Below are positions 19,353 through 36,250 of a stretch of 64,000 nt of DNA, one piece after another. This stretch comes from a bacterium (GTDB taxonomy: Bacteria; AUK180). The stretch is from assembly GCA_023133295.1 (NCBI GenBank), contig JAGLWT010000133.1, forward strand, positions 5,054 through 69,053, read 5' to 3'. A model generated the notes under the pieces. That model saw only the letters and a program-made list of their open reading frames with translations, had not been told where the DNA came from and made no database searches. A program made the translations under genes and the position numbers. Each line of letters begins with the position of its first letter. The first letter of the stretch is position 1.

Positions 19353-19382
19353 TTGTTTCTCAATTTACCAATGGTTACGTAC

Positions 19383-19559
19383 CTAAATATTTAGAACCTC
19401 TGTAAGATTCTTTTTGTTTGGACGACTCATTATCTTTATTTTATTTAGCATCTCTGTTGAATGTTTTCTTGATTGCTTTAATGCTTTCTTTCCTTCCTTT
19501 GATAATATCCATTCTCGAGCTTTTTCCCCTAAATCCTTACTTGCAATTTTTCTCACCAT
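19383..19559 (-). CDS. Small basic hypothetical protein (58 aa), absent from the ORF track
   Basis: MVRKIASKDLGEKAREWILSKEGKKALKQSRKHSTEMLNKIKIMSRPNKKNLTEVLNI. A GAGGAA Shine-Dalgarno-like sequence sits 5 nt upstream of the ATG. Lies between the C39-like gene and the IS element. Confidence 0.2.
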   Translation of the reverse strand: MVRKIASKDLGEKAREWILSKEGKKALKQSRKHSTEMLNKIKIMSRPNKKNLTEVLNI

Positions 19560-19599
19560 AATTTCCTCAATTAATTTCCTAGTGAATTATAGATTAATT

Positions 19600-20792: not shown

Positions 20793-21324
20793 AATCTGTA
20801 GTTATTAGCAAACCCTTACTATCTCATATACAGGGACAAAATTGTCCCTTTTTGGAGGTTCCATGAAAACAACATCTTGTTTTTTACTTGCTGCCTCAGA
20901 GATAGCTGAGGCATTTTGCACAGCCACTAAAGTATATGGCTTTATTGAGAATTTTGGAGAAACGAAGGATAAACCGTTGCGAATATGGCTTGAGGCTCTT
21001 GAGATCATTTGTAGCTTAATCAGTCTCATCCCCGCCTATGAAGATTCAAAATAGCCGCAGTTCTGCTCTCAATACTTAAGGAGGTGTATCTTGTGAAATT
21101 TTGGCTAGATGTCTGATAGACAATCCTTATTTCCCCGGAGGAAATATTGTATTCATTGCATTCTTTCTTATGATGATTAAATTATTAGTGCGGGCGCCTT
21201 TAATGTTAGCAAACTGATTTAATAGATCTAGAGGAACATACTTATGCGACGGAATCCATCGCATCATTTATGCGGTATATCTGAAGAGAAATGTGCGATC
21301 TCTGAGATTGCAGTATTGAAAATA

Positions 21325-22905
21325 CTATGTTACCCACTTTAAATTGATATTCCAATCACCTTCATTATAATTTAAATGTTTATTTCCACTTGGATAAATG
21401 CAGATACTAGGCCAATTCGCACATATTTTGAATCTTGGGGAAGTATTAAATGGAAATTTTTGATTTCTTTCTTCAAGATCAGAATTCCGCACTTTCTCAA
21501 TCTTGATACCGCAGAAGTCCCCACTAATCAAATTTCTAAACAAGACTCCCTCTACTTCAAGCCAGTAAATATAGCCCCCTCCTCGTATATTCATACATAA
21601 TGGTAATGAAAACTTTCTAAATTCTTCTCCAATGTTTTTATCAGAAATCTTGTCTAAGACAAATCCCCAACCGTTGAATAAAGAAATATTTTTATTTAAT
21701 TGGCTAAGAATGCGTAATGACTGTAAATCCTCCTCACACGAATCCTTAAGTTCCCATAATGATGGATTCAAGCATTCAAAATGTTTAAGATCTTTTAAAT
21801 ATTTTACTAACCACCCATACGCCTGCAAATTGAATGAATCTGTGGGTAATGTGTACTTCTCAACTCCAAATTGAATTTTTGATTCTCCTATGCAGTTTTC
21901 TAAAAAAGCACACAATTTAGGATATTTCAATATTGGAGTGTCTGCTTTTTCATCTATTTGACTTCTTGTGGTATGAACATATTCACCATCATGTAACTCA
22001 CGATTTGATATTACTAATGCTAGTCCAGATTGATGGTAATATCCAAAATGTGTTTTAGTCCTTCTATACATAAAATCACATCCTACTTCTTTCTCGCCAT
22101 TATTAGAAGTTAATTTTACAATTTTTCCTGTTTCAAAACTCGGCGCAGTTATTAACACTTTTGTTGGGAGATATTCAAATGCAGTCAATAGGTCATCTTT
22201 GAGTGGTAATTTCTGTAACCTACGTGATATTAAAGCGGGCTTCCCAAAAGCAGCTTTCATTATAACTTCTTCAACTTTGGGGAGGTGAGTATTATATTGA
22301 TCTTCCCAATTAGCCAGTTGAATAATTGAATATGTTTGATCTGGATTTTGGATTATTTGTAATCTTGATTCAGGAATAGCATATTGCAAATAGTATTTTC
22401 GAATATTCATTTTTATATTATCCAAATATTCAGGTTCTTTCATTCTAGATATCTCATTTTTAATTATATTTATGTCGCTAATACAATTTTTAAAGCTTAT
22501 CCTTTTAGTTTCTCTATCGCTATTAATAAAATTTATAATTTCTTTAATAAAACCATCAGTTTGAAATCTAAAAGCTACACAGTAATCTTTTTTTGGGTGT
22601 TTATAAAGTAAAACCAATATGAAAGGAAAATCACAAGTTAAAAATAGTTTTGCATCAGCCTTATTAATTTCAGCATAAGGATTTTTTTTATTCAAAGTTG
22701 AACGAACAAAAAAGGCAACGAATTTCGGAGGAATTTTTTTTATTCCTGGTGAAATTTCTTTTCCGATTATTTGACATATAAAATCTATCCCAAAATCATT
22801 AGTTAATTTTTCTGCTAAAAGATTTAATTCACTAGATGCAAAATACCGAATATAATGTTCAGCATCAATCCCTAATTTTTGACTTGCAGTAATTTTCTTT
22901 TCCAT
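21325..22905 (-). CDS. DUF4365-like (restriction-endonuclease-fold) N-terminal domain protein with a ~400-aa C-terminal region of unknown function; candidate defence protein
   Basis: Start chosen at MEKKITASQ (22905), which has a perfect Shine-Dalgarno AAGGAGG 9 nt upstream. The N-terminal ~130 aa carry the DUF4365 pattern NDFGIDFICQII ... KFVAFFVRSTLNKKNPY ... KLFLTCDFPFILVLLYK (compare D-Y-G-I-D ... v.vQ.KS in DUF4365). AT-rich. Confidence 0.5.
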   Translation of the reverse strand: MEKKITASQKLGIDAEHYIRYFASSELNLLAEKLTNDFGIDFICQIIGKEISPGIKKIPPKFVAFFVRSTLNKKNPYAEINKADAKLFLTCDFPFILVLLYKHPKKDYCVAFRFQTDGFIKEIINFINSDRETKRISFKNCISDINIIKNEISRMKEPEYLDNIKMNIRKYYLQYAIPESRLQIIQNPDQTYSIIQLANWEDQYNTHLPKVEEVIMKAAFGKPALISRRLQKLPLKDDLLTAFEYLPTKVLITAPSFETGKIVKLTSNNGEKEVGCDFMYRRTKTHFGYYHQSGLALVISNRELHDGEYVHTTRSQIDEKADTPILKYPKLCAFLENCIGESKIQFGVEKYTLPTDSFNLQAYGWLVKYLKDLKHFECLNPSLWELKDSCEEDLQSLRILSQLNKNISLFNGWGFVLDKISDKNIGEEFRKFSLPLCMNIRGGGYIYWLEVEGVLFRNLISGDFCGIKIEKVRNSDLEERNQKFPFNTSPRFKICANWPSICIYPSGNKHLNYNEGDWNINLKWVT

Positions 22906-22974
22906 GATATTATTCCTCCTTTTAGTAGATTCGTCGCGATTGCTTTTTATACCCATAAGCACCTCCTTAAGTTA

Positions 22975-23334
22975 TTATTTGTTGTTTATGAATGATAATA
23001 AATTATCCAGCATCAGCCTTGCTTCCTCTATATCAACTGAGGTAACTTTTCTCAGGAAATTTATTGCCTTCAGGCATTCGAGGATCGCTTTCTCTTTGTC
23101 TTCCGCGGTCAGGATCTTTTCAAGACACTTGATCGCATTGGATATATGGTGACTTTCCTTTTTATCAACATCAAGGTCATTCAGCATTTCAATAATATCC
23201 GAGTTCAAGGTTTCAGGATCATATGATACCGACTCAGTGAACTCAAAAGGTTCTTCTTGTTCATAAATCTGCTCCTCAATATCTTCACTGTCGCTAACTG
23301 TAGAATCAGTCTCCTTTCTCATCGTTGCTTTCAC
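22975..23334 (-). CDS. Small acidic hypothetical protein (119 aa); its 5' end duplicates an internal segment of the upstream RHS gene
   Basis: Begins MKATMRKETDSTVSDSEDIEEQ... The first ~20 codons and the ~30 nt upstream (23300-23365) match RHS gene 25773-25830 (YNEDNRIVKATMRKET) before diverging. The remainder is highly acidic. Confidence 0.45.
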   Translation of the reverse strand: MKATMRKETDSTVSDSEDIEEQIYEQEEPFEFTESVSYDPETLNSDIIEMLNDLDVDKKESHHISNAIKCLEKILTAEDKEKAILECLKAINFLRKVTSVDIEEARLMLDNLLSFINNK

Positions 23335-23424
23335 TATCCCGTTATCTTCATTATACCTAAATAATCATATTCGTAATTACTCTCAATACCGTCCTCATCG
23401 ATCATTTTTACTCTATTCCCAGGA

Positions 23425-24690
23425 CTATCTATGTTTGTCGTAAAATTCTTCTAATTTATATATGCGACACTTGTCAGTTCCGAAGAGAATAACTTGTTCG
23501 TCGGTTGTCATCACCCGCTCAACCTTATAATCAAAATCAAAAACCTTTTCCTCGCCATCTTCGAGGCGGTAAGTATAAATTTTATTCTCTAAGATCAGGA
23601 AGATCCTATCTTTGTAGATAAAGTCCGCCTCGTCGCGAAAAGATACCGGCGGTATTTCTTTCTGCCATAAAAGCCTACCATTTTTCAAATTGAAAACTTC
23701 ATAGCATTGCTTGGTGATCTTGTTATAATGTGCAGTAGCAACTCCGGTCCATTCTTCATCCGCTTTAAATCTTCTTTGAATTATCTTATTTCCAATAATA
23801 TCTGTTGTTGCAATTCCGTCCTTGTTCTTGCTCGGATATAAGTCCAGCTTCTGTTTTCTGTCGAATAGGAGCTTCCGCTTTTTCAGATCATAGACTGAAA
23901 AATGGGCAATGGGCACTCCGTCTTTCTTCTTATCAGGAGATTGAATCACATGTACCAAGTAGTGTGAAATTACATCAATAATTCCCTCTCTGTGATTAGA
24001 GTAGCCAATTTTCTTTAAATACCTTTTTAACTTAGGATTTGCAAAGTTCCGGATTTCCCAATTTTCCATATCAATCATTGTGGTTTGAAAATCATTTCGG
24101 AATTGATACAACCATATTATTTCCTCATTTTCTACACCAAGCCGCCAATAAGCAACTAATTTCTGGAAAAGTATATTAAAATCAACATCGGTAATAATTA
24201 ATTTTGAATATAGATGAGAAAAAATAATTTTATCTAAATGTTTCTGATAACCACCGTAATAGCCGTTTAAGAGTTTTGAAATATGAGAAGTATTGTCCAA
24301 TTCAAATTTCTTTGTCTCTTCATTAAAGGTATAAATTTCTAAATTCGTTTGTCTTTCTATTCTCCCTTCTTTAGGTGGTATATACAAGATCCTATTAGAG
24401 TCTGCAAAATTAAAGTTACTGGTTTTCTTCCCCTTACTTCCCTTAAAGTCCATGAGGATATTTTGAGGCATGGATAACCTTATTCTTTCAGGAAGAAGAA
24501 TCCAGTTCTTGGATCCTTCAAAGTTGATTTTTACGAAAGCGGCTTGACTCTGATTCTGTGAAGTTATGGATCCTCTTGGCTGAACCAATTTATACTCACT
24601 ATAGGTAATTTCGTCATATGAGTATATGTTACATGTAATTAAAAAGATAATAACAAACAAAGGTATTCTCTTATTCATCTCTTTCCTCAT
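23425..24690 (-). CDS. Secreted hypothetical protein (~420 aa); candidate immunity or partner protein of the RHS toxin
   Basis: Signal peptide MNKRIPLFVIIFLITCNIYS. The ORF as drawn (to 24708) overlaps the RHS stop at 24671, suggesting translational coupling. No recognisable catalytic motif. Confidence 0.5.
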   Translation of the reverse strand: MRKEMNKRIPLFVIIFLITCNIYSYDEITYSEYKLVQPRGSITSQNQSQAAFVKINFEGSKNWILLPERIRLSMPQNILMDFKGSKGKKTSNFNFADSNRILYIPPKEGRIERQTNLEIYTFNEETKKFELDNTSHISKLLNGYYGGYQKHLDKIIFSHLYSKLIITDVDFNILFQKLVAYWRLGVENEEIIWLYQFRNDFQTTMIDMENWEIRNFANPKLKRYLKKIGYSNHREGIIDVISHYLVHVIQSPDKKKDGVPIAHFSVYDLKKRKLLFDRKQKLDLYPSKNKDGIATTDIIGNKIIQRRFKADEEWTGVATAHYNKITKQCYEVFNLKNGRLLWQKEIPPVSFRDEADFIYKDRIFLILENKIYTYRLEDGEEKVFDFDYKVERVMTTDEQVILFGTDKCRIYKLEEFYDKHR

Positions 24691-27600
24691 AGAATTCATC
24701 GCTATCAATTATAACAGGATTCTGTGGATCGTCAAGTTGAATATTTACCAATCCCTCTATTTCCTTAACGTATTTTTTATAGTGGTGAGTATTTTCACTC
24801 TCATTGGCTCTTGCTTCAGCTTCTAAACCTTCCATATTATCGAGATAATACCTACCAAAAATATTTCGCATCTCTTTCGTAATCTCAGCTCGCTTTTCTT
24901 CATCTGACAAATCATCACGAGCCTGTATATCTTGAATTATCCTGAAAATCTGATTCTCATACTCTTCCAAATACTTAATAAACTGAATTACATGCGTTAA
25001 TTCATGTGAAGCTGTTGATTTCATTTCCTTTTGAAGAGTAAATATATAAAAGTCAAAAACGATTTCCCCTTCAGTATTAACTTGTGCTGTGAAATCAGTT
25101 TGCCCAAGCATCTTCGAATTGGAATCAAATATCTCCCCGATGGAACTTTCTCCGGTTAAAGCTAACTCAACTGTGTTATCGGAAAGATAAATATCTGCAT
25201 AATCCCTGTATAAAGAATATACTAGATATTCTCGCAATCCATCAAGATCAATGTATCTCAAAGGATTGTTCAATACATATATCCACCTGTTCAGACTCTG
25301 CGGGTTTTTCAAATTTAGGCTTGCCCTGTCCTTGCTCATCCACCTCCCGATCCTCTGGTCCAGATATCTCGCATTGGCATAATGGAGGTTAGTTTCCTCA
25401 TCATACTCATGTCCTGTGTACCCGTCCTTGTTCTTGTACTTCTCTTTCGCCTTGATGATATTCCCGAACGGGCCGTACTTATACGTATTCTCGATGCTTC
25501 CCATGGTGTCCGTTACCACTACAGGAGAACCTAAGACATCATAGTGGTAGTAGTGAGTGCCGTTTTTGTCCTTCTTCATGATCTTCTTGTTTCCAAAGTA
25601 ATAATTCACTTCACGATCTCCCGCCTCCAATTCGGCAAGAACTTTACCATTCATTCCCCGGAAATAGAAACCTTCCGTTTTTTCCCCATTGATGAGTTGC
25701 TTTAATTTATACACTCTAAGACCTCTGAAATCATATTGATAGTTTAGCTCAAGCGTTGCTGCCTTTTCAACTCCAGTCTCCTTTCTCATCGTTGCCTTCA
25801 CAATCCGGTTATCTTCATTATACACGAAATCAACGGAGTTTTGCAAGGTATCATTACCCAAAGTCTCCTTTCTTATTATGTTGCTGAAGTCATCATATGT
25901 ATAATTATGGCGCTTTTTAACATTGTCAACCCATGACAAGAGTCTGTTGGAAGTGTGTGCAATATTGTATGAATGTGTGTGAAAAGGACTCTGATACGAT
26001 AGGCGATTTCCGGTAGAATCATAGTTGTACTCCGTATTGAAAGGCGTTTTGTCATCATTGAACCAGGAATACATGGGACCGGTAACATTGTTGAGTCTCC
26101 CGAGTCGGTCGTATCCGTATTCCGTTTCGATATTATCTTCATCGATAAGTTTAATTCTGTTACCGTTTTTATCGTACTCATATGAATTTGTGTATATAAT
26201 ATTATTGTTACCTAAATTCATAATATCAATTTTTAATATTTCATTTAGTGGAGAATAGGCGTATTCTGTTGTCTCTGAAATTCCCGTAGGATACTTCGTT
26301 ACTGTACAACTTGAAAGCCTGCCGAAAGTATCGAAATGATTCTCAACACTAAAAAGCGGAATTCTAAGCCCCCCTAAAGATTCAGAGAAGCCGGATTTCA
26401 ATTTCCCTGAAAACTCTTCATAGGCGAAACCACTCTTTTGATCCAGGATGCCGTCATTTTCAAAATCGTACCAGAGATTGTTTAGCCGGTTTCGATTATT
26501 ATCATATCCATATGTGAATGACATCATATTTCCATTTAGGTCTATGGTCTTCTTGGTTATCCTGTCCAGACCGTCATATTCGTAGGTGTAAGTATTTCCG
26601 TTTAGATCATCAGTTTCCTTTAATACATTCCCCATTAAATCATAGTTTATTGTTTTTATATTTTGTGTTATTTGTGAAATGCTACTCTCGATTTTGCCCA
26701 GACGACCGAGTGTATCATAACTATAGTTTTTTGCTACCTGGGCAGAATTTTGATATCCTAATACATTGCCCGCAAGATTATTTTCATATTCTTCCCAACT
26801 CCCATCAGATTCAATTTTATTCACTAGCTGCGATAGGTAGTTATATTGAAATTGTGACTGATTACCCCGGCTATCAGTTACCAGAGTAAGGTTTCCAAGT
26901 GCATCGTAGTCATACGAAGTTTCATAAATCGCAGCATCATTGTACTCTTTGACCATAATCAGTCCATCTTCAACATCATAGAGATATTCCATATTCGGAT
27001 CTCCTGATTTATCAGCTTTGGGGCTCCAAATTTTCTCACTTCTGAAAACTCCATTTTCATTGTTAAAGTAGAGATGCTCTGATTTTGAAATCCGAATATC
27101 ACCGTCCTTTGATAATCTGGTTTCAATAACCCTGTCAATTTGATCATATTTGAATTCAGTTGAAATTCCTGAAGGCGAGATCTTGCGGATCAAATTATCA
27201 AAATCGTTGTATTCGTATCTTGTCTCAAAGAATTCCGAGGGATCTAAGGCTGTATTACCATTCTTATCGAAGAATTGCCACTCCTTCTCAATCCTAAAAA
27301 AGCTGTCAAAGTGGTATTTCGCGTTTGCCACTACTGCTCCGTCAAGGTATTCCGTGGAGGCTGTAATTGTTCTAAGTGTATCGTCATAACCATATAAGCT
27401 CTGTGGAAGATCTTGCTTGCCTACCTTGGTTAATCTTCCATAAATATCATATTCGTATGCAGTATTTCTTCCCATGGGATCAATATAGGTTTCTAAAAAC
27501 AATTCATCATTGTAATCGGCAAAAGCCATTAGAGTATAGGCGCCATCGATTTCTCCATCCACATATTTGTTCGAGTCTACTTTTACTCCGGTCAGAAGGG

Positions 27601-29821
27601 AGTTCCCGAAAGAGTATCCACTCAGAGTATCCCATGAGAAATCAACCCGCGGCCAATAGTGATAATCATATGCCGCCGAAGAATTGGCTTCTGTATAACC
27701 GTAATTAAGGAATACCCTACGCCTTTCACTCCCATTTATGTATTGATCTATCATCAAAGGTTTACCGTACCAATCCACAGCGACTACTTCTGACAGCAAT
27801 GTCCATGAGTTGTCCTCTGTATTGAATAAGTGCTCCCTTACCGGAACTCCGGATGGATCAAATTCTTTTTTAAAATGGCTGACCAGGGAAGCACTCTGGT
27901 AAAGTTTTTTCTCTGATCGTGCAATTATATTCGTAAAAAAGCTATAAGGCAGATCTTCTACAACCCTGATGTCTTGGTAGTAATTATATTCACGTATCTT
28001 CCCAAGTGGGAGATACTCTTTACTTAAGTATCCAAGAGTATTATATTCGTACGAAAATTCCACAGGAACATCATCCATAGTCTTTGTGATCTTGACGGGC
28101 CTGTAAATTTCATCTCTATTTGAATATACGCCAGATTCGTTAAGGAAAGGAGATATAATGTTAAGTTTCTCGTATTCATAGTCAGTCTTATATCCATTTG
28201 GTAGTCGATCTCGTATCTTTAATACAAGATTATTCCATTTCCAATCAGACGGGACAAGGTAAATGTATTCCCCTCCATTTTCTTGGACATCCAAGTAATT
28301 CAGATATATCCAATGATCAATATTGCTGTGTATCAAATACCGGGATTGATAAATACGCTGATCTACAATGGCTCCATCCACTATATCATTAACAATCTTC
28401 TCAACCATGTGTAATCTCCAGTCAGGTTCATTCGAATCCTGCTGTTGATATATGTATGATATGGTTGGAGGGAAATTGTCAGCTGAAACATTATTTTCAC
28501 CGATCCTTTTAATTGATTTTAGAGATCTAAACTTAAAGTCATTGACTCTCGTTATCCAACCAGAATATTGCATGGGGTTCCAGTTGGAATTATACTCTTC
28601 AAATTCAAACCGCAATTTCTCCCCACTTGTGGAGATATAGTCCCAGTCATTTGGATCTAATCTAAATCCACAAATTTGTTCACCATACTTATAAATGAAT
28701 TCGGGATTTGAAAGAAAAGATTTTGTATATGAATTTAAAATACTAAAGCTCACAGAGCCCGTATTCGCCCCGGATAAATAATTACTCTCATAGGCAGAAT
28801 AATCCATCAATGAAGATTCAAATGACTCGCCGACAAAGAATGAAATTATGTCTGCAATGGAATCATAACTGATTAATCTATATGTCTTCCCCGATACTTC
28901 AAGAGTACTGCCACTTACATTTACCGAGTATAACGGCAAATAACTATCCCCTGCACCAGCCTCCTTTGAGTATACAGTGAATGATTCATCTCCGGGTTCA
29001 TCTTCCGAATACTTCATCATCTTTCCATTCGAAAAGTAGAATTCAGGTTTTGTCTCATTATCGGGATCATGAGGAGATGATTTACTTAAGATATTGTATG
29101 GAGACTCCTGATTAGATGTAAGGCTTAGATACTTCAGATCGTTGTCTGGAGAGTCAATGGTTTGATTATAATAATCTCTTACTATTCTTTTACAAATGGC
29201 CCAACTGCCGACATCATTTACATAACCGGATACTTCGTGGATATCAACATCCTCCTTTATATACTCACACCTTCGTGTATAATATTCATGATGAGAATGA
29301 GGATTTGCGAAATTTGCTTCATATACTCCATTTTTTTCTAATTTGAAAATCTTGACGGCTACTCCATCAATACTGAGAATCCAAGCGTGTTCATATGAGC
29401 ATTGATAATCAATTGATCCACGATACGTCATCTTGGGTGGAGCCTCGAAAGAATCGCTTTCCAGCGGCCAGTTGTTATTAATATTCTTGACTAGCTTCAA
29501 TTTAACATCCGCTGTACTTCCATCCTTCAAAGGAAATGTCTTTAGGGTACGAGAAAGAATAACATTCCCTGAAAAATCATCCACAGAGCATGAAAAATCA
29601 ACGGTGCTGTAAGTGCTTTTATCAAATGATACGGTATTGAAATAAGATGCAATATCAAAGATCCCACTATCCTCTTCATCTCCGGCGGACATTGTACGCA
29701 TTATTGTATTTGAAGCTTCATCTTTATTCAGTTCAGAAGAAAGTCTAGAATTCGTTTCAGAGAATGTCCTCATCGAAAAAAGAATACATGCTATTAAAAA
29801 GAAGAATTTGACTGATTTCAT
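24671..29821 (-). CDS. RHS/YD-repeat polymorphic toxin (1716 aa) with Sec signal peptide and a C-terminal HExxH metallopeptidase-like toxin domain
   Basis: Signal peptide MKSVKFFFLIACILFSMRTFS. Many YD repeats (YEYDIYGRLTKV, YDYDALGNLTLV, YTYEYDGLDRITK, YGYDRLGRLNNV, YDVLGSPVVV). RHS core end GHEYDEETNLHYANARYLDQRIGRWMSKD ... NRWIYVLNNPLRYIDLDGL (the DPxGL-type boundary). A 187-aa tip follows, containing HELTHV. Confidence 0.85.
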   Translation of the reverse strand: MKSVKFFFLIACILFSMRTFSETNSRLSSELNKDEASNTIMRTMSAGDEEDSGIFDIASYFNTVSFDKSTYSTVDFSCSVDDFSGNVILSRTLKTFPLKDGSTADVKLKLVKNINNNWPLESDSFEAPPKMTYRGSIDYQCSYEHAWILSIDGVAVKIFKLEKNGVYEANFANPHSHHEYYTRRCEYIKEDVDIHEVSGYVNDVGSWAICKRIVRDYYNQTIDSPDNDLKYLSLTSNQESPYNILSKSSPHDPDNETKPEFYFSNGKMMKYSEDEPGDESFTVYSKEAGAGDSYLPLYSVNVSGSTLEVSGKTYRLISYDSIADIISFFVGESFESSLMDYSAYESNYLSGANTGSVSFSILNSYTKSFLSNPEFIYKYGEQICGFRLDPNDWDYISTSGEKLRFEFEEYNSNWNPMQYSGWITRVNDFKFRSLKSIKRIGENNVSADNFPPTISYIYQQQDSNEPDWRLHMVEKIVNDIVDGAIVDQRIYQSRYLIHSNIDHWIYLNYLDVQENGGEYIYLVPSDWKWNNLVLKIRDRLPNGYKTDYEYEKLNIISPFLNESGVYSNRDEIYRPVKITKTMDDVPVEFSYEYNTLGYLSKEYLPLGKIREYNYYQDIRVVEDLPYSFFTNIIARSEKKLYQSASLVSHFKKEFDPSGVPVREHLFNTEDNSWTLLSEVVAVDWYGKPLMIDQYINGSERRRVFLNYGYTEANSSAAYDYHYWPRVDFSWDTLSGYSFGNSLLTGVKVDSNKYVDGEIDGAYTLMAFADYNDELFLETYIDPMGRNTAYEYDIYGRLTKVGKQDLPQSLYGYDDTLRTITASTEYLDGAVVANAKYHFDSFFRIEKEWQFFDKNGNTALDPSEFFETRYEYNDFDNLIRKISPSGISTEFKYDQIDRVIETRLSKDGDIRISKSEHLYFNNENGVFRSEKIWSPKADKSGDPNMEYLYDVEDGLIMVKEYNDAAIYETSYDYDALGNLTLVTDSRGNQSQFQYNYLSQLVNKIESDGSWEEYENNLAGNVLGYQNSAQVAKNYSYDTLGRLGKIESSISQITQNIKTINYDLMGNVLKETDDLNGNTYTYEYDGLDRITKKTIDLNGNMMSFTYGYDNNRNRLNNLWYDFENDGILDQKSGFAYEEFSGKLKSGFSESLGGLRIPLFSVENHFDTFGRLSSCTVTKYPTGISETTEYAYSPLNEILKIDIMNLGNNNIIYTNSYEYDKNGNRIKLIDEDNIETEYGYDRLGRLNNVTGPMYSWFNDDKTPFNTEYNYDSTGNRLSYQSPFHTHSYNIAHTSNRLLSWVDNVKKRHNYTYDDFSNIIRKETLGNDTLQNSVDFVYNEDNRIVKATMRKETGVEKAATLELNYQYDFRGLRVYKLKQLINGEKTEGFYFRGMNGKVLAELEAGDREVNYYFGNKKIMKKDKNGTHYYHYDVLGSPVVVTDTMGSIENTYKYGPFGNIIKAKEKYKNKDGYTGHEYDEETNLHYANARYLDQRIGRWMSKDRASLNLKNPQSLNRWIYVLNNPLRYIDLDGLREYLVYSLYRDYADIYLSDNTVELALTGESSIGEIFDSNSKMLGQTDFTAQVNTEGEIVFDFYIFTLQKEMKSTASHELTHVIQFIKYLEEYENQIFRIIQDIQARDDLSDEEKRAEITKEMRNIFGRYYLDNMEGLEAEARANESENTHHYKKYVKEIEGLVNIQLDDPQNPVIIDSDEFYEERDE
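24674..25234 (-). other. Variable C-terminal toxin tip of the RHS protein (HExxH zinc-metallopeptidase-like), downstream of the DPxGL-type core boundary
   Basis: Residues after ...YIDLDGL: REYLVYSLYRDYADIYL ... STASHELTHVIQFIKYLEEYENQ ... The HExxH motif is followed by a Glu-rich helix. Confidence 0.55.
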
Positions 29822-30411
29822 TCTGCAACCCCTTCCAAGAGGAATTCAATCCGGTTCATGTTGAAGCTCGCTGTCCTTATAAACCGATATTCCGGATAAT
29901 TTTCCACTATCTCTTGATAGATTGCGTGCGCTGCTTTTAGATTACCGATATTTTCATAGGATTTAGCTTTATTGTGTTTGACTTCGGCAATATATTTGCT
30001 GCCGGGATATGCTGCTTCAAAGGCTTGATACTCTGAAATTGCTTCTGAATATCTAAGTGCAAAGAAGTAGCAATCGGCTACCCATTTCGCTGCTGTATCA
30101 GCGGTGGCTAAGATATTACAATTCGCCGCCTGTCTAAATGTATTAATTGCCTTCTCGATGGGATATTGCCTGAATTGTACTTTTAAGGCATTTTCCTTGT
30201 CCCAAAGATAGTAAAGGGCAATTCCTTTCTCTAGAAGAATCTCTGACATTGAATCCCCTGAAGATGAAATAAGGAGCTCGCACATGGAGACCGCCTCTTC
30301 AAATTTCCCTTTTGAGATGAGTTCTTTAACATCTGCAAGGCTCGTGTCAGCTGATACAATGCCGCAGAATAAAACAAAGATACAAATAATATATGTAAAT
30401 CGTTTTTTCAT
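29818..30411 (-). CDS. TPR-repeat exported protein/lipoprotein, translationally coupled to the RHS gene
   Basis: 197 aa. Signal peptide MKKRFTYIICIFVLFCGIVSA. TPR-like helical repeats (EAVSMCELLI, AINTFRQAANCN, AISEYQAFEAAYPGSKYIAE, AHAIYQEIVENYPEY). ATGA overlaps at both ends (30408-30411 and 29818-29821). Confidence 0.6.
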   Translation of the reverse strand: MKKRFTYIICIFVLFCGIVSADTSLADVKELISKGKFEEAVSMCELLISSSGDSMSEILLEKGIALYYLWDKENALKVQFRQYPIEKAINTFRQAANCNILATADTAAKWVADCYFFALRYSEAISEYQAFEAAYPGSKYIAEVKHNKAKSYENIGNLKAAHAIYQEIVENYPEYRFIRTASFNMNRIEFLLEGVAE

Positions 30412-33400
30412 TTTGTCACCTCCTTGTACATGGATTCATAATAAAGAAGAAGTCCATCAAGAAGCCTTCTGCTCCTATCGGTATCAATATCTTCGATTGC
30501 GACAAGGTTGTTGATGGTTTTTACAATATCCAGTATTGCCTTGTCAAGCTCTTCAATGTTCACAAAAGAGTCATCTAAGCCCTCAAATGTTTTTATTGCT
30601 TTTCTGATCCGGTTTGAATATTCAGTCTCGATTGAGATTTCGTATAATATCTCGGAAATAGCGGCTTTTATTTCTGAAATGTCCATTGCCATATAGATTG
30701 TCCTTTCAATCTCTTCCGTGTCAAACCAGATAACTGTGGCTTTGTAGGATGTTCTAGTGATAAAATTAAGCTCTCCCGAATAATCAGGCAGTCTTATTAA
30801 ATACTTCACGGTAACTTCCTTTTTTCCCTCTGGGAATTCAAAAGTGATAGAACCGTCTTCCACCACCCCTCCGTCATACACCTTAATAATTTCGACATTT
30901 TCTGGTAATATCTCAGTGATCCTAATAGGCACGGTAATATCCGCGATAACTTTGGTTTCAAGGGCGATTACCATCCCCGGAAGGTGTTCCTCTGGAATTC
31001 CGGGGGTTATCGCCCTGATATTGTCTGAAACGATCTCGGAAAGGTTGACATTTACTGCATTATACAATAGATCAAAACCATAGTATGCTGTCTTTCCCCA
31101 TCCATAGGGATTCAGTGTAATCACCGGTGAAGCAGGATTATTCGAAACAGATATAGTTCCAACAGAGACTAAATTAGAAGAAATGCCAAGCAGTTCAAGT
31201 CTTTGAACCCAACCCTCGATTGGGATGATTCCCGCGCTGCTTATACTCGTATCAGTTATGTCAATGAAATAATCATTTTCTGGATATTCCCCTATGGATT
31301 TCAAATTGAACATCCCAGGAGAACCCCCTTCAGAAATCATATGGATATATCCCGAAGATATCAGCCCAAAGCCACTGTAAACATGCTCCCGCATTTCTTC
31401 TGCGGTATGTCCGGGAAGATTATCATCTTTCTCATTGATCCAATAGACATTAAACCGGCCTGTTCTCATTTCATCAACAAAGTCGTTTATATTGTCAACT
31501 ATCGCATGGTCCGCAAGATTATTAAGCAGCATAAAATTATCAAGGTCCTGAGCCCCCTCACCATTGAGAATAAGTACCCTTTCAAAAGCAGTTCCATTAA
31601 CCGAAGTTTCAACTGCGGGGGCTAGGATTACCTCTTTGATATATACTTCGCTCTCATTGTCAACATTGTCTGTCGTCTTATACGAAATGATATACCTACC
31701 CGGTGCACTGAAAGGAAGCGTAAATGCATCTAAATAGTTCATCCAACCAGTATCATTCTGATCTGATACGCTTTCGATCCTGTATTGATAGTATTTCACT
31801 CCACTTTGACTATCGCTTCCCGAAAAAGTGAAAAAAGTTCCAAGATATACCAGAGTATTATTCTCGATTTGCCTAAAGGGAGAGTATGCCAAACTCACAT
31901 GTGGAGCTGTTTGATCTACAATGAACATTTGAGTTTCAGATATTTCCCTATTACATGCAGAATCGATACTTAAAAATGATAGAGTTATATCACTCTGGTC
32001 AAACTCTGATCCAGAAATAGCAGAAGTGTATTCGAGTGATTCAGAATTGTTAATGGAGTACTCGATTTTGTTCACACCAGATTGATAGAGGCCGCTATCG
32101 AAAGCACTTATAGAGATATTGGAATCCTCTGATATATATGTTAACCCATTATTTATATACTGGCTTCCTTCAATGTCAATATTAGAAATCGGTGCTACGG
32201 TATCGATCATAAATTGAGAATAATAGAACTCGCTTTGAAGTCCTTCTACATCAGTCCCCTGTAATTTAAATGCGTATAACCCATCGGGTAGTGTTTCGCC
32301 GATGTTTGAGCTTGCATCCCATATATGTGAAGATATGCCATCAACATTTGAATAGAATTGTGTCTTAAATACTTCTTCGCCGGAGTCACTTATCACGGCA
32401 AGGTCAATCAATGAAAATTCTGAAACGGAAAAAGTGATTTCAATAAAATCAAGGCAGTTATTGGAATCAGGACTGAGATAATAAGAACTTATACTTAAAT
32501 CAGCAATCTCGGGTTGAGTATAATCGCCAAAGTATCCTGAAAGAACATAGTATCCTTCAAGCGATTGTATTTCTACTGTTAATACATTGCTCACCGTGTC
32601 TCTATGGACCCTGGTTTCGTCCGGCTGGGCAACATGCCACATATTTGAGTCGGTATTGTATGCCCATACCTGCAGCTTACTTTCATCTAGCCCCTGAACC
32701 TTCTCATCAGAATAGGTAAAGGCAATTTCAATAAAATCGGTGAAATACTCTTGACCTGAAAGAAGTCTAATATCGTACACATTTGATAAAATCGGTTCGA
32801 TGTCATCTTGATTGGTCCCTTCTGATGGAATACTCTGCTGGGGAACAGAACTTATCATCAAAGTGTCAAATGTTGAAAGAATATCATTCTCGTTAACAGT
32901 GGCTATAACATTGCTTTCAATATTTTCGACATTACCAGGAACATTTCCTGCGATATTCTGACATTCGGAATATTCGGTTAGTGAGATTATGTTTAAATCA
33001 GCTCTGTTTTCAGAAATATATTGCGAGATGATTATTTTGTTTTCCGAATATGAATAAAATGGGAATGACGGAATGCCATTAGAGTCGGAAACTGAAAGAA
33101 TATTATTGGCGAAAAGGTCGTCCTCCCCACCCATTGAATCTACTCTCCCCAAAGAGATATTCATGTAATCGGGGGTTCCAGGTAATAATTTGGGTTGGGT
33201 ATTTCCAAAGGGATCTTCTCTCAAAGAAAATGCAAATCTACAATCAGTACCCTCAATGAAATTCCCACCGGAATAATAAATATACCTGCTATTATTATCC
33301 CAATCCATAAGCATCACAGAGTCGTAGTTGGAATTTGGGAACCTAGTTAACTCAATAGTTTGAGCATATTCCCCATAAGGGTCTAAATAAGCCACTTTTA

Positions 33401-35765
33401 CTCCAAGGGAAAAAGAATCAGCATCCAAAAAAGCTATTGCACTTGAATCATGTGAAATAACCGGTTGCCAACAAGTATTAATGCATTCTATCGTTGAATA
33501 CTCATCTATATAATACTGGTTTTGTGACCCATCAGGCATTATCAATATTTGAATTCTGTTACTAGGTTCAGCTATCGAGTCTCTAGCAGTTCCATGAAAG
33601 GCTAATAATGTACCGTCATCACTCCAGTCAATTCCATATATATATCCGAATATTTCAAATTGCCAAATAGTACTAGCGCTATTGACATCGTAGCATTTAA
33701 TGACGGTTTTATTTTCATCATTGCGGTAAATGTATGCCAAGGTATCTGAATTTCCCGCCCAAACGAAATCATCCCCCCATACTATATCGGGAAGAATTGA
33801 AATATTAGAGTTTTCTGTATCTACAATATGAATGTTGAAGCTCCTTAAAAATGCTACATATTTCCCTGACTTGGATATTTTATTAAACTTTGTAGGGCTG
33901 GGGTTCCACGAAGAATAAGGAGGTAATACAGAAGGTCTGGGGATACTGGAGACGAGTTGATAATAATTCGTACCATCGGTATTTAATCGATAAATACCAG
34001 AGTTTTCACTTAAATCATACGGACAAGTATTTCCCGGAATTTGAGCTACACTACATTTACATCCTCCTGAATATTCAAAATAATACAGCTGCGAACCCTT
34101 AATGAATGGCTGAAATGCGTAGGAATTTGATTCGAATTCCACGCGCTCAATACCTGAAATCGCAACTTTAGTTCCGGTTTCAATTTTAAATCTACCCGAC
34201 AAAGACTTTGAAGCAATTGAATAAATGTCTACAACATCAATATGGTAAAAGTATTCGCCATCCGGATAAATATTTCCATATTGATCACGCCCATCCCAAC
34301 TGATAACAACCTCATCTGAAGAAACAACTTCAGAGAATACAATTGTCCCATCTATATTTTTGATCTTAAAAATCCATGGGGATATCAGAGTTAAGTTCCC
34401 AACGCATGCGTCAAAATTAATCATTTCATTACAATTATCATCATTTGGAGAAAGAACATCACTTGAGACTACAATATTGACATCAATTGTGTTAATCTCA
34501 ATTTCTTTCACTTGACTGGCCAACATATTCCCTTGAAGATCCTCATATATAATTTCAATCAGATATTCACCTTCTGGAATAGTTTCTGTGGTAATAGTAC
34601 CTTCCAGCAAATAATCATTAAATGGTTTCGCGGAAAAACTTGAATAATATGTCTCGATAACAATTCCATTCAGATCCTTTAAGTGTATTTGTAACCTCGC
34701 CTCACTCTTTGAATAAAAAGAAGTGGAAAAAGTAATCTCGGCATATTTATGGGAATAATAATTTCTATTGAGCTCGAATTTAATTATTCTGAATGAATCA
34801 GATGGAACATGGTGAAATTCCCCTGCAATAGACCTCTCATTGTTGGAAATTTCGTAAATTTTTGAGTTATTATTAGTGTATATTGGTGTAGTTCCCAAGT
34901 GACTTGTTGAAAGAAATGGAGATGAAAATACATCGTCCAAACTTGACCAAATACTCTTATCAAGACCCATTTGCCAAATAGCGGAAGAAACACTGCTAAC
35001 ATCAGTAAAAGTAGGCCCGTTATATGCGATCAATTCAAATTGCCCCTGATTATTAACAAAAATCTCTGTTTGAAAATTCTCAGTAATAACTGAAATATCC
35101 TTATTTCCATCGCCATTGTAATCAAATACACCTGTTATTTCCTTTATACTACTGTTTAAATCCTGATCAAGATCCGAATTACAATTGAAACCAGTGGATG
35201 AGCTGCTGTATATGGTCAGGTTCCCTGTTTGGGAAAGAAATAAGAGCCAATAACTTGTATCGCCAGAAAAAAGACCAATGGTGGATTCCACACTTGGATT
35301 TAAAATAGGAATATCAATTTCCTGCACTATGCAAGGGTTAAGAATATCTTCATATACCTGAAACTTAGATCCCGACAAAAATCCAAATTCCAACCTTTGA
35401 TTATTGTTATAGTCGTCAAATAACTGTATATCCGAATCTACTGATTGAACGCCTGCCAACAACATTTGGAATATGAGGTCAAAATCATCGTCAAGAACAT
35501 TGTAATAATACTTGCCCTCGCAATTTGATAAAAAAATGATCTCAAATTCGTCATTTTCTTCTACTATTTCTAAATTTGATATGATTTGTTCTCCGTAACG
35601 AGTCAAATATGTGCCTAATAAGTACATATCTTTAAATCCAATAACGCTTCCCTGGCCTTCTTCCACACAGAAAACATAGTCCTGATATTGAACGGGAGCC
35701 CACTTAATATGCGCATAACTTGTTAATGCAATAATACACATCACCATTATAAAGGCCTTTTTCAT
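30408..35765 (-). CDS. Giant exported surface protein (~1785 aa) with FlgD-Ig-like domains, a TolB-like beta-propeller region and a C-terminal ~400-aa region of unknown fold; no T9SS CTD
   Basis: Start taken at MKKAFIMVMCIIALTSYA, with Shine-Dalgarno AAGGAGA 9 nt upstream. FlgD-Ig-like segments (LSPNDDNCNEMINFD ... ISWDGRDQYGNIYPDGEYFYHIDV; LSPDSNNCLDFIEITF ... LPDGLYAFKLQGTD). TolB-like repeats (KSGKYVAFLRSFNIHIVD, WSDDGTLLAFHGTARD). The C-terminus ends ...LLLYYESMYKEVTK with no sorting signal. Confidence 0.7.
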   Translation of the reverse strand: MKKAFIMVMCIIALTSYAHIKWAPVQYQDYVFCVEEGQGSVIGFKDMYLLGTYLTRYGEQIISNLEIVEENDEFEIIFLSNCEGKYYYNVLDDDFDLIFQMLLAGVQSVDSDIQLFDDYNNNQRLEFGFLSGSKFQVYEDILNPCIVQEIDIPILNPSVESTIGLFSGDTSYWLLFLSQTGNLTIYSSSSTGFNCNSDLDQDLNSSIKEITGVFDYNGDGNKDISVITENFQTEIFVNNQGQFELIAYNGPTFTDVSSVSSAIWQMGLDKSIWSSLDDVFSSPFLSTSHLGTTPIYTNNNSKIYEISNNERSIAGEFHHVPSDSFRIIKFELNRNYYSHKYAEITFSTSFYSKSEARLQIHLKDLNGIVIETYYSSFSAKPFNDYLLEGTITTETIPEGEYLIEIIYEDLQGNMLASQVKEIEINTIDVNIVVSSDVLSPNDDNCNEMINFDACVGNLTLISPWIFKIKNIDGTIVFSEVVSSDEVVISWDGRDQYGNIYPDGEYFYHIDVVDIYSIASKSLSGRFKIETGTKVAISGIERVEFESNSYAFQPFIKGSQLYYFEYSGGCKCSVAQIPGNTCPYDLSENSGIYRLNTDGTNYYQLVSSIPRPSVLPPYSSWNPSPTKFNKISKSGKYVAFLRSFNIHIVDTENSNISILPDIVWGDDFVWAGNSDTLAYIYRNDENKTVIKCYDVNSASTIWQFEIFGYIYGIDWSDDGTLLAFHGTARDSIAEPSNRIQILIMPDGSQNQYYIDEYSTIECINTCWQPVISHDSSAIAFLDADSFSLGVKVAYLDPYGEYAQTIELTRFPNSNYDSVMLMDWDNNSRYIYYSGGNFIEGTDCRFAFSLREDPFGNTQPKLLPGTPDYMNISLGRVDSMGGEDDLFANNILSVSDSNGIPSFPFYSYSENKIIISQYISENRADLNIISLTEYSECQNIAGNVPGNVENIESNVIATVNENDILSTFDTLMISSVPQQSIPSEGTNQDDIEPILSNVYDIRLLSGQEYFTDFIEIAFTYSDEKVQGLDESKLQVWAYNTDSNMWHVAQPDETRVHRDTVSNVLTVEIQSLEGYYVLSGYFGDYTQPEIADLSISSYYLSPDSNNCLDFIEITFSVSEFSLIDLAVISDSGEEVFKTQFYSNVDGISSHIWDASSNIGETLPDGLYAFKLQGTDVEGLQSEFYYSQFMIDTVAPISNIDIEGSQYINNGLTYISEDSNISISAFDSGLYQSGVNKIEYSINNSESLEYTSAISGSEFDQSDITLSFLSIDSACNREISETQMFIVDQTAPHVSLAYSPFRQIENNTLVYLGTFFTFSGSDSQSGVKYYQYRIESVSDQNDTGWMNYLDAFTLPFSAPGRYIISYKTTDNVDNESEVYIKEVILAPAVETSVNGTAFERVLILNGEGAQDLDNFMLLNNLADHAIVDNINDFVDEMRTGRFNVYWINEKDDNLPGHTAEEMREHVYSGFGLISSGYIHMISEGGSPGMFNLKSIGEYPENDYFIDITDTSISSAGIIPIEGWVQRLELLGISSNLVSVGTISVSNNPASPVITLNPYGWGKTAYYGFDLLYNAVNVNLSEIVSDNIRAITPGIPEEHLPGMVIALETKVIADITVPIRITEILPENVEIIKVYDGGVVEDGSITFEFPEGKKEVTVKYLIRLPDYSGELNFITRTSYKATVIWFDTEEIERTIYMAMDISEIKAAISEILYEISIETEYSNRIRKAIKTFEGLDDSFVNIEELDKAILDIVKTINNLVAIEDIDTDRSRRLLDGLLLYYESMYKEVTK

Positions 35766-36250
35766 GAGCATATCTCCTTTCTTGTGATTATGATATAATC
35801 CCGAAATAGAATCATTTCATCCCCTTGCCAGCTATATCGGAAGTTTATCTTTTCTCTCAATAATCCCTATTGGACATGATGCAAAGCCTTGTTGCGACTA
35901 CACATTTTAAAATTAAAAAGCTATCACATAACGAAAGCGTTTCATGCAGGAGCAGCCTTGAAGGTTGAAATCATCAATTGCATTCTTCGGTTACCCTTCC
36001 TTTGTGAGGAATTCTCTAACTAATTGTAATAGAAATATGCCAAAATGTCAAGTATATGATTATACCTCTTAGCCCATGTGGCATGTCGCGGTGATGGGGA
36101 GAAAGAGGAGATACTACACATTCAAAAAATGCAGTACTGAGTACAAAGGTGAGGTTATAAAGCAACCGATAAGCTGTTATTTCGTACACCCTTTTAATAT
36201 AGTTCTCTTTTCTTTCATTTTTCGTAAATATTTGGTAAAATCTTTAGACA

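What the first reader, a model, noticed from the sequence alone, without database searches (positions are those of the whole stretch)
22975..23365. Orphan ORF whose 5' end is a duplicated internal fragment of the RHS gene: footprint of RHS cassette recombination
Nucleotides ~23300-23365 (minus strand) match RHS gene 25773-25830 nearly base for base. They encode (F)YNEDNGIVKATMRKET versus the RHS (F)VYNEDNRIVKATMRKET, and the similarity begins immediately after an in-frame TGA. Downstream the ORF diverges into a 119-aa highly acidic product.

RHS loci classically carry orphan fragments created by homologous recombination that swap C-terminal modules. Here the homology block lies ~125 aa upstream of the DPxGL boundary, not at it, which is atypical. 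The acidic product could be an orphan immunity-like protein or a remnant of an alternative tip.
Basis: seen in the sequence. Interest (0 to 1): 0.6.

Follow-up and report, generated by a model that had tools for sequence, protein, structure and literature searches.

The report
Chimeric gene-remnant scar beside RHS toxin
The small "orphan" gene next to this bacterial toxin gene is a patchwork of leftovers, made of two scraps of the toxin gene's shell region joined to the tail end of an unrelated giant surface-protein gene, so it is an ordinary recombination scar rather than a new immunity or toxin gene.

Summary
Window 23307-23356 matches RHS 25774-25823 at 47/50 nt, with none expected by chance.

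The stretch 23429-22975 (minus strand) is a composite of four pieces:
1. A diverged RHS core scrap (like aa 1220-1241) that starts 5 nt after the stop of the gene following the RHS.
2. The near-identical 50-nt scrap (aa 1334-1349), in another reading frame, with about 90 core codons missing between the two scraps.
3. 48 nt of filler that matches nothing.
4. The last 94 codons of a giant secreted-protein gene.

Piece 4 is 85% nt-identical to the 3' end of a full-length gene in an Atribacteria MAG. It is 30% aa-identical to the C-terminus of the 1787-aa protein that heads this RHS operon.

In 1.84 billion representative proteins this roughly 95-aa domain closes proteins of up to 5736 aa. It is acidic, predicted to be a four-helix bundle, and absent from Pfam. 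The "acidic orphan product" is therefore a truncated C-terminal domain, not an immunity protein or an alternative RHS tip. The scar has no DPxGL-type motif, no toxin domain and no convincing ribosome-binding site.

The most likely origin is RHS C-terminal displacement followed by deletions. Interest is low. The unnamed giant-protein C-terminal module is a modest side finding.

The parts
24671..29821 (-). Full-length RHS/YD-repeat toxin gene (1716 aa). The core-end motif PLRYIDLDGL is at aa 1520-1529. The C-terminal tip carries an HELTH (HExxH) motif.
   Evidence: Pfam RHS_repeat E 1.7e-29. NCBIfam YD_repeat_2x E 2.5e-26 and Rhs_assc_core E 1.6e-18 at aa 1449-1529. Motif position. The tip has no homologue at E<=1e-3 and only weak zincin-like Pfam hits.
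25774..25823 (-). Master copy of the 50-nt direct repeat ("block 2"), encoding RHS aa 1334-1349 (YNEDNRIVKATMRKET).
23425..24708 (-). Gene immediately after the RHS. It is 427 aa from the TTG start, or 417 aa from ATG 24678 as called in the public assemblies. It has a signal-peptide-like N-terminus and overlaps the RHS stop. It is inferred to be the cognate immunity or accessory gene of the current tip.
   Evidence: ORF list. Gene call in L002. No family or structure hit. The role is inferred from position only.
23355..23420 (-). RHS core remnant "block 1": GNRVKMIDEDGIESNYEYDYLG, homologous to RHS aa 1220-1241. It is 14/22 aa identical and about 62% nt identical by hand count. It sits in a different frame from the ORF and begins 5 nt after the stop of the 427-aa gene.
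   Evidence: tblastn E 5.4e-4. Specificity and shuffle test. Frames.
23307..23356 (-). RHS core remnant "block 2": the 50-nt copy (47/50) of RHS aa 1334-1349. It supplies the ORF's possible start codons (GTG 23334, ATG 23322). About 90 core codons (aa 1242-1333) are missing between blocks 1 and 2, and the junction shifts the frame.
   Evidence: blastn-short returned only 9-14-nt chance matches. Global alignments to L006, L007 and L008 fall to random similarity upstream of 23258.
22978..23258 (-). 3'-terminal fragment (last 94 codons) of a giant secreted-protein gene, encoding a predicted acidic four-helix-bundle C-terminal domain. Stop codon is at 22975-22977.
   Evidence: 86% nt identity to L006 17361-17560 with a sharp onset at 23258. 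85% nt identity to L007 over 87 codons. BLASTP to p1787 aa 1684-1777, E 2e-9. Profile census. Structure model pLDDT 76.6 with four helices.
22975..23334 (-). The annotated ORF itself: 119 aa from GTG 23334, or 115 aa from ATG 23322 as in the NCBI and ENA gene calls. It is a chimera of block 2, the filler and the giant-gene tail.
   Evidence: No Shine-Dalgarno-like motif before either start.
30408..35771 (-). 1787-aa secreted giant protein at the head of the RHS operon. It is a paralogue of the gene from which the ORF's tail derives, and its own C-terminus carries the same domain.
   Evidence: It aligns to P0121, P0124 and P0126 over hundreds of residues.
21325..22956 (-). Next gene downstream (543-545 aa), low GC, with a strong AAGGAGG ribosome-binding site 18 nt after the ORF's stop. 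It marks the start of a variable, IS-containing stretch. It is not part of the scar but sets its right-hand boundary.
   Evidence: No family or relatives found.

Best explanation
Window 23429-22975 (minus strand) is a composite recombination scar, and the annotated 115/119-aa ORF is an accidental reading frame across it.

Shown (anatomy). In 5'-to-3' order the scar contains:
1. Two collinear scraps of RHS core: one like aa 1220-1241 and diverged, one like aa 1334-1349 and near-identical. About 90 codons are missing between them, and the junction shifts the frame.
2. A 48-nt filler.
3. The last 94 codons of a giant secreted-protein gene from the same family as the operon's first gene.

Inferred (history).
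- The present RHS 3' end (late core, toxin tip and the 427-aa gene) was installed by recombination within the core. This is the C-terminal displacement model of Jackson et al. 2009, which invokes circular intermediates carrying a core fragment. It left a duplicated core fragment directly after the incoming cassette.
- The 50-nt block is either the crossover island or a later short gene-conversion patch. Either would explain why it is 94% identical while the neighbouring scrap is only about 62% identical.
- One or more illegitimate deletions then removed the middle of the core fragment. They also removed everything between RHS codon 1349 and the last 94 codons of a nearby giant gene, with filler DNA inserted at the joint.

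Consequences.
- The ORF's start codon comes from the RHS scrap and its body from the giant-gene tail.
- It is probably not a functional gene.
- The two direct repeats could still mediate a deletion of the toxin tip and the 427-aa gene. That would leave an in-frame 1459-aa RHS::tail fusion.
For: Repeat and RHS scraps:
- The repeat is real and non-random.
- The second RHS scrap is specific to one particular YD repeat and collinear with the first.
- RHS-like sequence starts 5 nt after the stop of the 427-aa gene.
- The closest database relatives of this RHS core are only 34% identical. A 94% nt block must therefore come from this gene or a very close paralogue.
- Block 2 positions are less conserved among 115 RHS homologues than block 1 positions (25% against 36% identity to the query). 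Selection therefore does not explain its high identity.

Giant-gene tail:
- The tail shows a sharp onset of 85-86% nt identity to full-length genes at 23258.
- The domain lies at the extreme C-terminus of proteins up to 5736 aa. It ends a >=1349-aa ORF that runs to the contig edge in L007 and a 2785-aa ORF in L008.
- The domain is the last part of a conserved C-terminal module of about 370 aa.
- None of the 96 newly retrieved hit proteins has YD repeats.

Context:
- No Shine-Dalgarno-like motif precedes either start codon, whereas the next gene has an 8-mer match.
- The scar abuts a low-GC stretch containing an IS.
- The literature has precedents for silent, frameshifted core fragments and for core fragments without a tip (PMC2935791, section read; PMC3150448).
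- Two assemblies agree.
Against: - The order and number of events cannot be reconstructed from one genome. No close relative of this RHS locus was found.
- The ORF is intact over 119 codons and keeps all 14 invariant residues of the small family alignment.
- dN/dS against full-length relatives is 0.20-0.24, no higher than between full-length genes at 0.34-0.47. There is therefore no positive sign of decay.
- The RHS frame of block 2, the filler and the tail are all in one frame. That is roughly a 1-in-7 coincidence under a pure-scar model.
- About half the genes in this window also lack an obvious Shine-Dalgarno motif.
Confidence: 0.7

Rival explanations
1. The truncated four-helix C-terminal domain has been domesticated as a stand-alone small protein. 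It might, for example, modulate, cap or compete with the C-terminal module of the giant surface proteins. The RHS scrap would merely provide its start codon.
For: - The ORF is intact and its conserved residues are kept.
- dN/dS is 0.10-0.24 against all relatives.
- Two other 5'-truncated stand-alone copies exist in different contexts. One of them (L004 689-919) has its own AGGTGA motif and ATG.
- Gene callers of two public assemblies call the ORF.
Against: - The three stand-alone copies have three different 5' breakpoints and different neighbours. They are therefore independent truncations, not one conserved small gene.
- The low dN/dS can be inherited from the time spent inside full-length genes.
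- The window copy has no ribosome-binding motif.
- In full-length proteins the domain is the tail of a module of about 370 aa.
Confidence: 0.12
2. One reading: the ORF is an orphan RHS module, meaning an orphan immunity-like protein or the remnant of an alternative RHS C-terminal tip swapped by cassette recombination.
For: - It lies downstream of a full-length RHS and its follower gene, in the same orientation, and starts with RHS core sequence.
- The product is small and acidic, like many immunity proteins.
Against: - No DPxGL-type motif, Rhs_assc_core or toxin domain follows the core scraps.
- The body of the ORF is homologous to the C-terminus of giant non-RHS proteins.
- Acidity is a family trait of that domain, with pI 4.3-5.0 in full-length members.
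- None of the 96 newly retrieved hit proteins has YD repeats.
- No hit in the defence, immunity or phage libraries.
Confidence: 0.04
3. Block 2 is not a remnant of a displaced core at all. It is a short templated patch copied from the nearby RHS gene during break repair or template switching, in the same event that created the filler and the deletion joint.
For: - Block 2 is far more similar to the main gene (94% nt) than block 1 (about 62%).
- It sits next to 48 nt of untemplated-looking filler.
- It is not a conserved part of RHS cores.
Against: - It is collinear with block 1 in the RHS order, which a random patch need not be.
- It differs at 3 of 50 positions, so it is not very recent.
- Crossover at an island of identity, or short-tract gene conversion, explains the same facts.
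Confidence: 0.12
4. The feature is a metagenome assembly chimera or a chance match.
For: - The contig comes from a metagenome-assembled genome.
- Repeats can mislead assemblers.
Against: - No matches occurred in 100 shuffles.
- The longest exact run is 22 nt, shorter than typical final assembly k-mers.
- The ENA re-assembly (92-kb scaffold) is 100% identical to the window over 20,348 nt. The window extends beyond that scaffold's end, so it comes from a different contig.
Confidence: 0.02

Closest known systems
Dissociated rhs core fragments and "tips" created by C-terminal displacement (Jackson et al. 2009, PMC2935791); orphan rhs-CT/rhsI modules (Poole et al. 2011, PMC3150448)
   Same: - It lies directly downstream of a full-length rhs and its follower gene, in the same orientation.
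- It carries partial core sequence that forms a direct repeat with the upstream gene.
- It lacks a proper translation start and carries a frameshift, like the silent, degenerate fragments described in Serratia.
- Jackson's Figure 5 legend also records core fragments "without any obvious associated tip".
   Different: - The retained core is tiny (22 + 16 codons) and internally deleted.
- It ends about 175 aa before the core-end motif.
- No tip or immunity gene follows.
- It is fused to the tail of an unrelated giant-protein gene.
- The two scraps differ greatly in divergence (about 62% against 94% nt), unlike the near-identical core repeats of enterobacterial loci.
Chimeric ORFs across deletion joints (gene-remnant fusions, as commonly annotated "hypothetical protein" in variable regions)
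   Same: - The start codon comes from one gene remnant and the body from another.
- Filler DNA sits at the joint.
- An IS and low-GC island DNA lie adjacent.
   Different: Both remnants derive from gene families that belong to the same operon (giant protein, TPR protein, RHS), which hints that a second copy of that gene set once lay here.
C-terminal sorting or anchoring domains of giant bacterial surface proteins (for example the T9SS C-terminal domain, PF18962)
   Same: The roughly 95-aa domain is always at the extreme C-terminus of very large, signal-peptide-bearing, multi-domain extracellular proteins.
   Different: - It is predicted to be an acidic four-helix bundle, not a beta-sandwich.
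- It has no Pfam or NCBIfam model and no significant structural neighbour.
- Its function is untested.

Membership tests
Orphan rhs-CT/rhsI module (dissociated RHS tip) | [quoted passage not shown] | tested here: met
   The order on the minus strand is RHS 29821-24671, then the 427-aa gene to 23425, then the scar from 23420.
Orphan rhs-CT/rhsI module (dissociated RHS tip) | Retains 3' core-coding sequence homologous to the upstream rhs gene | tested here: met
   There are two collinear scraps, matching aa 1220-1241 (14/22 aa) and aa 1334-1349 (47/50 nt).
Orphan rhs-CT/rhsI module (dissociated RHS tip) | Contains the core-end motif (PxxxxDPxGL type) and the Rhs-associated core domain | tested here: not met
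   The main gene has PLRYIDLDGL at aa 1520-1529 and TIGR03696 at aa 1449-1529. The scar stops at aa 1349. No further RHS similarity appears in any frame and there is no Pfam hit.
Orphan rhs-CT/rhsI module (dissociated RHS tip) | Has a variable C-terminal toxin domain after the motif, followed by a small cognate immunity gene | tested here: not met
   After the core scraps come 48 nt of filler and the tail of a giant-protein gene. The next gene is a 543-aa low-GC ORF with no family.
RHS / YD-repeat toxin (the neighbouring 1716-aa gene) | YD repeats, the Rhs-associated core domain and a variable tip | tested here: met
   PF05593 E 1.7e-29. TIGR01643 E 2.5e-26 and TIGR03696 E 1.6e-18. The tip is unique, with no homologue at E<=1e-3.
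C-terminal four-helix domain of giant secreted proteins (unnamed; p1787 / P0121 family) | Sequence homology to the family's C-terminal domain | tested here: met
   BLASTP to p1787 gives E 2e-9. It is 71% aa identical to P0121 and 85% nt identical to L007. A profile search returned 98 representatives at E<=1e-3.
C-terminal four-helix domain of giant secreted proteins (unnamed; p1787 / P0121 family) | Located at the extreme C-terminus of a large multi-domain protein, preceded by the rest of the conserved module of about 370 aa | tested here: not met
   In the window only the last 94 codons are present. Homology stops sharply at 23258, and RHS scraps and filler lie upstream. The window copy is therefore a truncated fragment.
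Polymorphic-toxin immunity protein | Neutralises a cognate toxin; usually encoded directly after the toxin domain | not testable with these tools
   No toxin domain precedes it. There are no hits in PADLOC, PHROGs, Pfam or NCBIfam. A functional assay would be needed.

The most novel reading that the evidence does not exclude
The truncated C-terminal four-helix domains of giant surface proteins may be recurrently retained as functional mini-proteins. Copies occur here, in L004 with its own ribosome-binding site, and in L003. They might act as decoys or regulators of whatever partner recognises the giant proteins' C-terminal module. In addition, the 50-nt direct repeats may allow switching between a toxin-armed RHS and an in-frame RHS::four-helix fusion that lacks the toxin and its follower gene.
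Probability: 0.08. Interest if true: 0.55.

Novelty: new member of a known kind. Interest (0 to 1): 0.22.

Why it matters
This result mainly prevents a mis-annotation. The "hypothetical protein" here should not be counted as an RHS immunity or tip candidate.

It also gives a clean example, outside the Enterobacteriaceae, of the degenerate end-state of RHS C-terminal displacement. The example comes from an uncultured lineage that has relatives among Atribacteria-like MAGs. It shows a tip-less, frameshifted core scrap fused to another gene's tail.

The more useful by-product is a conserved but unnamed C-terminal module that closes giant secreted proteins of up to about 5700 aa. One such protein heads this RHS operon. 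If that module is a sorting or anchoring signal, it would be relevant to how these organisms display or export very large proteins and possibly the RHS toxin.

Tried and rejected
- Exact-protein look-ups of the 119-aa and 427-aa ORFs failed because public gene calls use other start codons.
- Pfam, NCBIfam, PADLOC and PHROGs gave nothing for the ORF, the 427-aa gene or the 545-aa gene.
- A PDB sequence search with the domain profile gave only insignificant hits to designed TPR and helical proteins.
- Foldseek of the AF2 model against the PDB gave no match better than E 0.47, only generic helical bundles. The afdb50 library was unavailable.
- Looking for relatives of the 545-aa downstream gene, to recover an ancestral "giant gene then 545-aa gene" arrangement, found none in genome contigs or metagenome contigs.
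- A degenerate 33-nt pattern of block 2 found nothing in JGI metagenomes.
- The RHS core search returned only relatives at 34% identity or less, and did not list the RHS itself. No donor of block 1 could be identified.
- The toxin tip has no homologues, so I could not test whether the tip and the 427-aa gene travel together as a cassette.
- I rejected the idea that an RHS ending in the four-helix domain is a natural architecture. None of the 96 newly retrieved hit proteins matches the RHS or has YD motifs.
- I rejected a generic YD-repeat explanation for block 1. The best alignment score is 84 at aa 1220, against 45 elsewhere.
- The filler has no source in the window or in any fetched locus.
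- Rfam and tRNA scans of the window were empty.
- Promoter and terminator scans showed nothing above shuffle expectation near the scar.
- dN/dS comparisons cannot separate a recent pseudogene from a functional fragment.

Full report
**1. The observation**

On the minus strand, 23356-23307 reads GTATAATGAAGATAACGGGATAGTGAAAGCAACGATGAGAAAGGAGACTG. It matches 25823-25774 inside the RHS gene at 47 of 50 positions. A search allowing three mismatches finds only these two copies in 64 kb, and 100 dinucleotide-preserving shuffles gave none.

The two copies are direct repeats 2467 nt apart. Their three differences are one R>G change and two synonymous changes, and the longest exact run is 22 nt.

The ORF at 22975-23334 exists. 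Both public assemblies call it as a 115-aa hypothetical protein starting at ATG 23322. The product is acidic, with pI 4.4.

One number needs correcting. The block ends at RHS residue 1349 and the core-end motif PLRYIDLDGL is at 1520-1529. The block therefore lies about 175 residues upstream of the boundary, not about 125.

The ENA re-assembly is identical to the window over 20,348 nt. The window extends past that scaffold's end, so two contigs support the arrangement.

**2. What else is there**

A tblastn search of the RHS protein against the window found a second RHS-like piece directly upstream of the block, in another reading frame. It runs from 23420 to 23355 and encodes GNRVKMIDEDGIESNYEYDYLG.

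- It aligns specifically to RHS residues 1220-1241 at 14/22 identity.
- The alignment score is 84, against 45 for the next-best YD repeat. The maximum in 2000 shuffles was 55.
- It begins 5 nt after the stop codon of the 427-aa gene that follows the RHS.

The two pieces are collinear with the RHS. About 90 core codons (1242-1333) are missing between them, and the joint shifts the frame.

By my codon-by-codon count, block 1 is about 62% nt-identical to the main gene. Block 2 is 94% identical.

**3. The body of the ORF is not RHS-related**

A homology search with the ORF returned four relatives.

- Two of them (P0003 and P0005, on L001 and L005) are the C-terminal ends of larger proteins cut by a contig edge or a scaffold gap.
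- L005's two halves align collinearly to residues 1538-1635 and 1670-1779 of the 1787-aa protein encoded at 30408-35771. That protein is the first gene of the RHS operon.
- The ORF itself aligns to residues 1684-1777 of that protein at 30% identity, E 2e-9.

A profile of the domain was searched against 1.84 billion representative proteins.

- It gave 98 hits at E<=1e-3.
- In the long hits the domain is always at the extreme C-terminus. Examples are 2453-2544 of 2545, 3914-3996 of 3998 and 5561-5642 of 5650.
- These proteins carry NHL, Ig-like, FlgD-Ig, PD40, laminin-G and thioester-type domains. No Pfam model covers the tail.
- The domain is the last part of a conserved C-terminal module of about 370 aa.

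At the DNA level the homology to full-length genes is strong and begins sharply.

- Window 23258-23059 is 86% identical to the 3' end of the full-length 2545-aa gene in L006, with homology starting at 23258.
- Identity over 87 codons is 85% to L007, an Atribacteria MAG, and 77-79% to L006 and L008. L007's ORF is at least 1349 aa and runs to the contig edge. L008's is 2785 aa.
- Upstream of 23258 the alignments collapse.
- The 48 nt between the RHS block and 23258 match nothing.

The AF2 model of the domain is a four-helix bundle with pLDDT 76.6. It has no significant PDB neighbour. Acidity is a family trait, with pI 4.3-5.0 in full-length members.

**4. Anatomy**

Reading 5' to 3' on the minus strand:

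| Coordinates | Feature |
|---|---|
| 23427-23425 | Stop codon of the 427-aa gene |
| 23420-23355 | RHS block 1 |
| 23356-23307 | RHS block 2; contains the ORF's GTG and ATG starts |
| 23306-23259 | 48-nt filler |
| 23258-22978 | Giant-gene tail |
| 22977-22975 | Stop codon of the ORF |
| 22956 | Start of the next gene, 18 nt further on, after a strong AAGGAGG site |

The next gene is low-GC. A stretch follows that holds an IS with a partial duplicate of its own end.

**5. How it most likely arose**

The steps below are inferred.

Jackson et al. (PMC2935791) proposed that new RHS tips arrive on circular intermediates carrying a core fragment. These recombine within the core, so the old 3' end is displaced downstream behind a direct repeat of core sequence. 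They describe such fragments as mostly lacking start sites and often frameshifted. They also note core fragments with no associated tip. Poole et al. (PMC3150448) describe orphan modules with retained core sequence that contains in-frame stops.

The present locus fits this model in several ways.

- The duplicated core begins right after the follower gene of the current tip.
- It is a direct repeat of the main gene.
- Its best-matching island (block 2) is what would be expected of a crossover site or a short conversion tract between otherwise diverged alleles.
- Block 2 is not a conserved part of RHS cores. Among 115 homologues its identity to the query is 25%, against 36% for block 1.
- The nearest database cores are only 34% identical. 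Recent exchange with this very gene is therefore the only reasonable source.

Displacement alone does not explain the missing 90 codons, the absence of everything from codon 1350 onward, or the fusion to a giant-gene tail through filler DNA. These need one to three illegitimate deletions. Such deletions are plausible beside an IS-bearing, low-GC variable stretch. An alternative order is that the cassette integrated into an RHS already truncated onto the giant-gene tail. I cannot distinguish the two orders.

Both remnants belong to gene families of the same operon (giant protein, TPR protein, RHS). This suggests that a second giant gene once lay downstream. Giant genes also occur in tandem in L006.

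**6. Is the ORF functional?**

Evidence against:

- There is no Shine-Dalgarno-like motif before either start codon, whereas the next gene has an 8-mer match.
- The N-terminal 25 residues are RHS scrap and filler.
- The domain normally sits at the end of a large module.

Evidence for:

- The frame is open and the conserved residues are intact.
- dN/dS is 0.10-0.24 against relatives.
- Two other stand-alone truncated copies exist, in L003 and L004. The L004 copy has its own AGGTGA motif and ATG.

Those copies have different 5' breakpoints and unrelated neighbours: an HATPase_c_3 gene and an ion-channel gene. They are therefore independent truncations. The low dN/dS can be inherited from life inside full-length genes. 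Full-length pairs give 0.34-0.47, so the test has no power here. I put about 0.12 on a functional mini-protein.

**7. Comparison with known systems, and verdict**

The main gene is a bona fide RHS toxin.

The scar fails the membership test for an orphan rhs-CT/rhsI module. It has no core-end motif, no tip and no immunity gene. It does fit the degenerate, tip-less core fragments already described.

The tail belongs by homology to an unnamed C-terminal domain family of giant secreted proteins, but it is a truncated copy.

The feature is therefore a real but ordinary recombination scar. The immunity or alternative-tip idea is not supported.

A practical consequence concerns the two 50-nt repeats. 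Recombination between them would delete the toxin tip and the 427-aa gene. It would leave an in-frame 1459-aa fusion. Read-level data could test this.

Noticed in passing
window 23425-35771 (minus strand): This looks like a four-gene operon with 4-8-nt start/stop overlaps. It encodes a 1787-aa secreted giant protein, a 197-aa TPR protein, the 1716-aa RHS with a Sec-type N-terminus, and a 417/427-aa signal-peptide protein. No PAAR, VgrG or T6SS signature was seen among the proteins scanned. The RHS tip (aa ~1530-1716) has an HELTH motif, only weak zincin-like Pfam hits, and no homologue at E<=1e-3.
   Followed up: partly
window 30411-31520 (p1787 aa ~1415-1787); P0121-P0216; L006-L008: A conserved, unnamed C-terminal module of about 370 aa closes giant secreted proteins of 1000-5736 aa with very diverse upstream domains. 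Its last ~95 aa are predicted to be an acidic four-helix bundle. The search gave 98 cluster representatives. The module has no Pfam or NCBIfam model and no structural neighbour. It could be a sorting or anchoring module.
   Followed up: partly
L004 689-919; L003 100-354; P0122: Other 5'-truncated, stand-alone copies of the same C-terminal domain occur at unrelated loci, each with a different breakpoint. L004's copy has its own AGGTGA motif and ATG, and lies between a T9SS-tail protein and an HATPase_c_3 gene. P0122 has an unrelated 66-aa N-terminus.
   Followed up: partly
window 19611-20792, and 20640-20760 vs 19620-19740: An rve-family IS transposase gene is preceded by a 121-nt copy (105/121 identical) of its own 3' end. 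This looks like a remnant of a second IS copy or of a tandem insertion.
   Followed up: partly
window 17754-22962: This is a low-GC stretch (29-34% against a window mean of 40.5%). It holds two large ORFs (545 and 532 aa) that have no hit in Pfam, NCBIfam, PADLOC or PHROGs. The 545-aa ORF also has no PDB hit and no relatives in the genome or metagenome scans. The stretch is probably laterally acquired island DNA that sets the right-hand edge of the scar.
   Followed up: partly
L006 ~17290-17310, L007, L008, L001 (upstream of the breakpoint); window 23320-23307: Full-length relatives carry (R/K)LP(E/D)TG(E/D)EF about 25 residues upstream of the point where the window copy is truncated. RHS block 2 ends in RKETG. 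This may be microhomology at the original joint, and it incidentally resembles an LPXTG motif. Neither idea was tested.
   Followed up: no
window 5823-11141 (minus strand): A 1772-aa protein combines a clostripain-type C11 peptidase domain, three proprotein-convertase P-domains, a PD40 repeat and a weak T9SS-type C-terminal sorting domain. It is unrelated to the finding.
   Followed up: no
(database behaviour): The word-indexed homology search with RHS aa 1151-1530 returned only proteins of 665 aa or less and did not list the 1716-aa RHS itself. Long RHS relatives may therefore have been missed, and "no close relative" is a weak negative.
   Followed up: no
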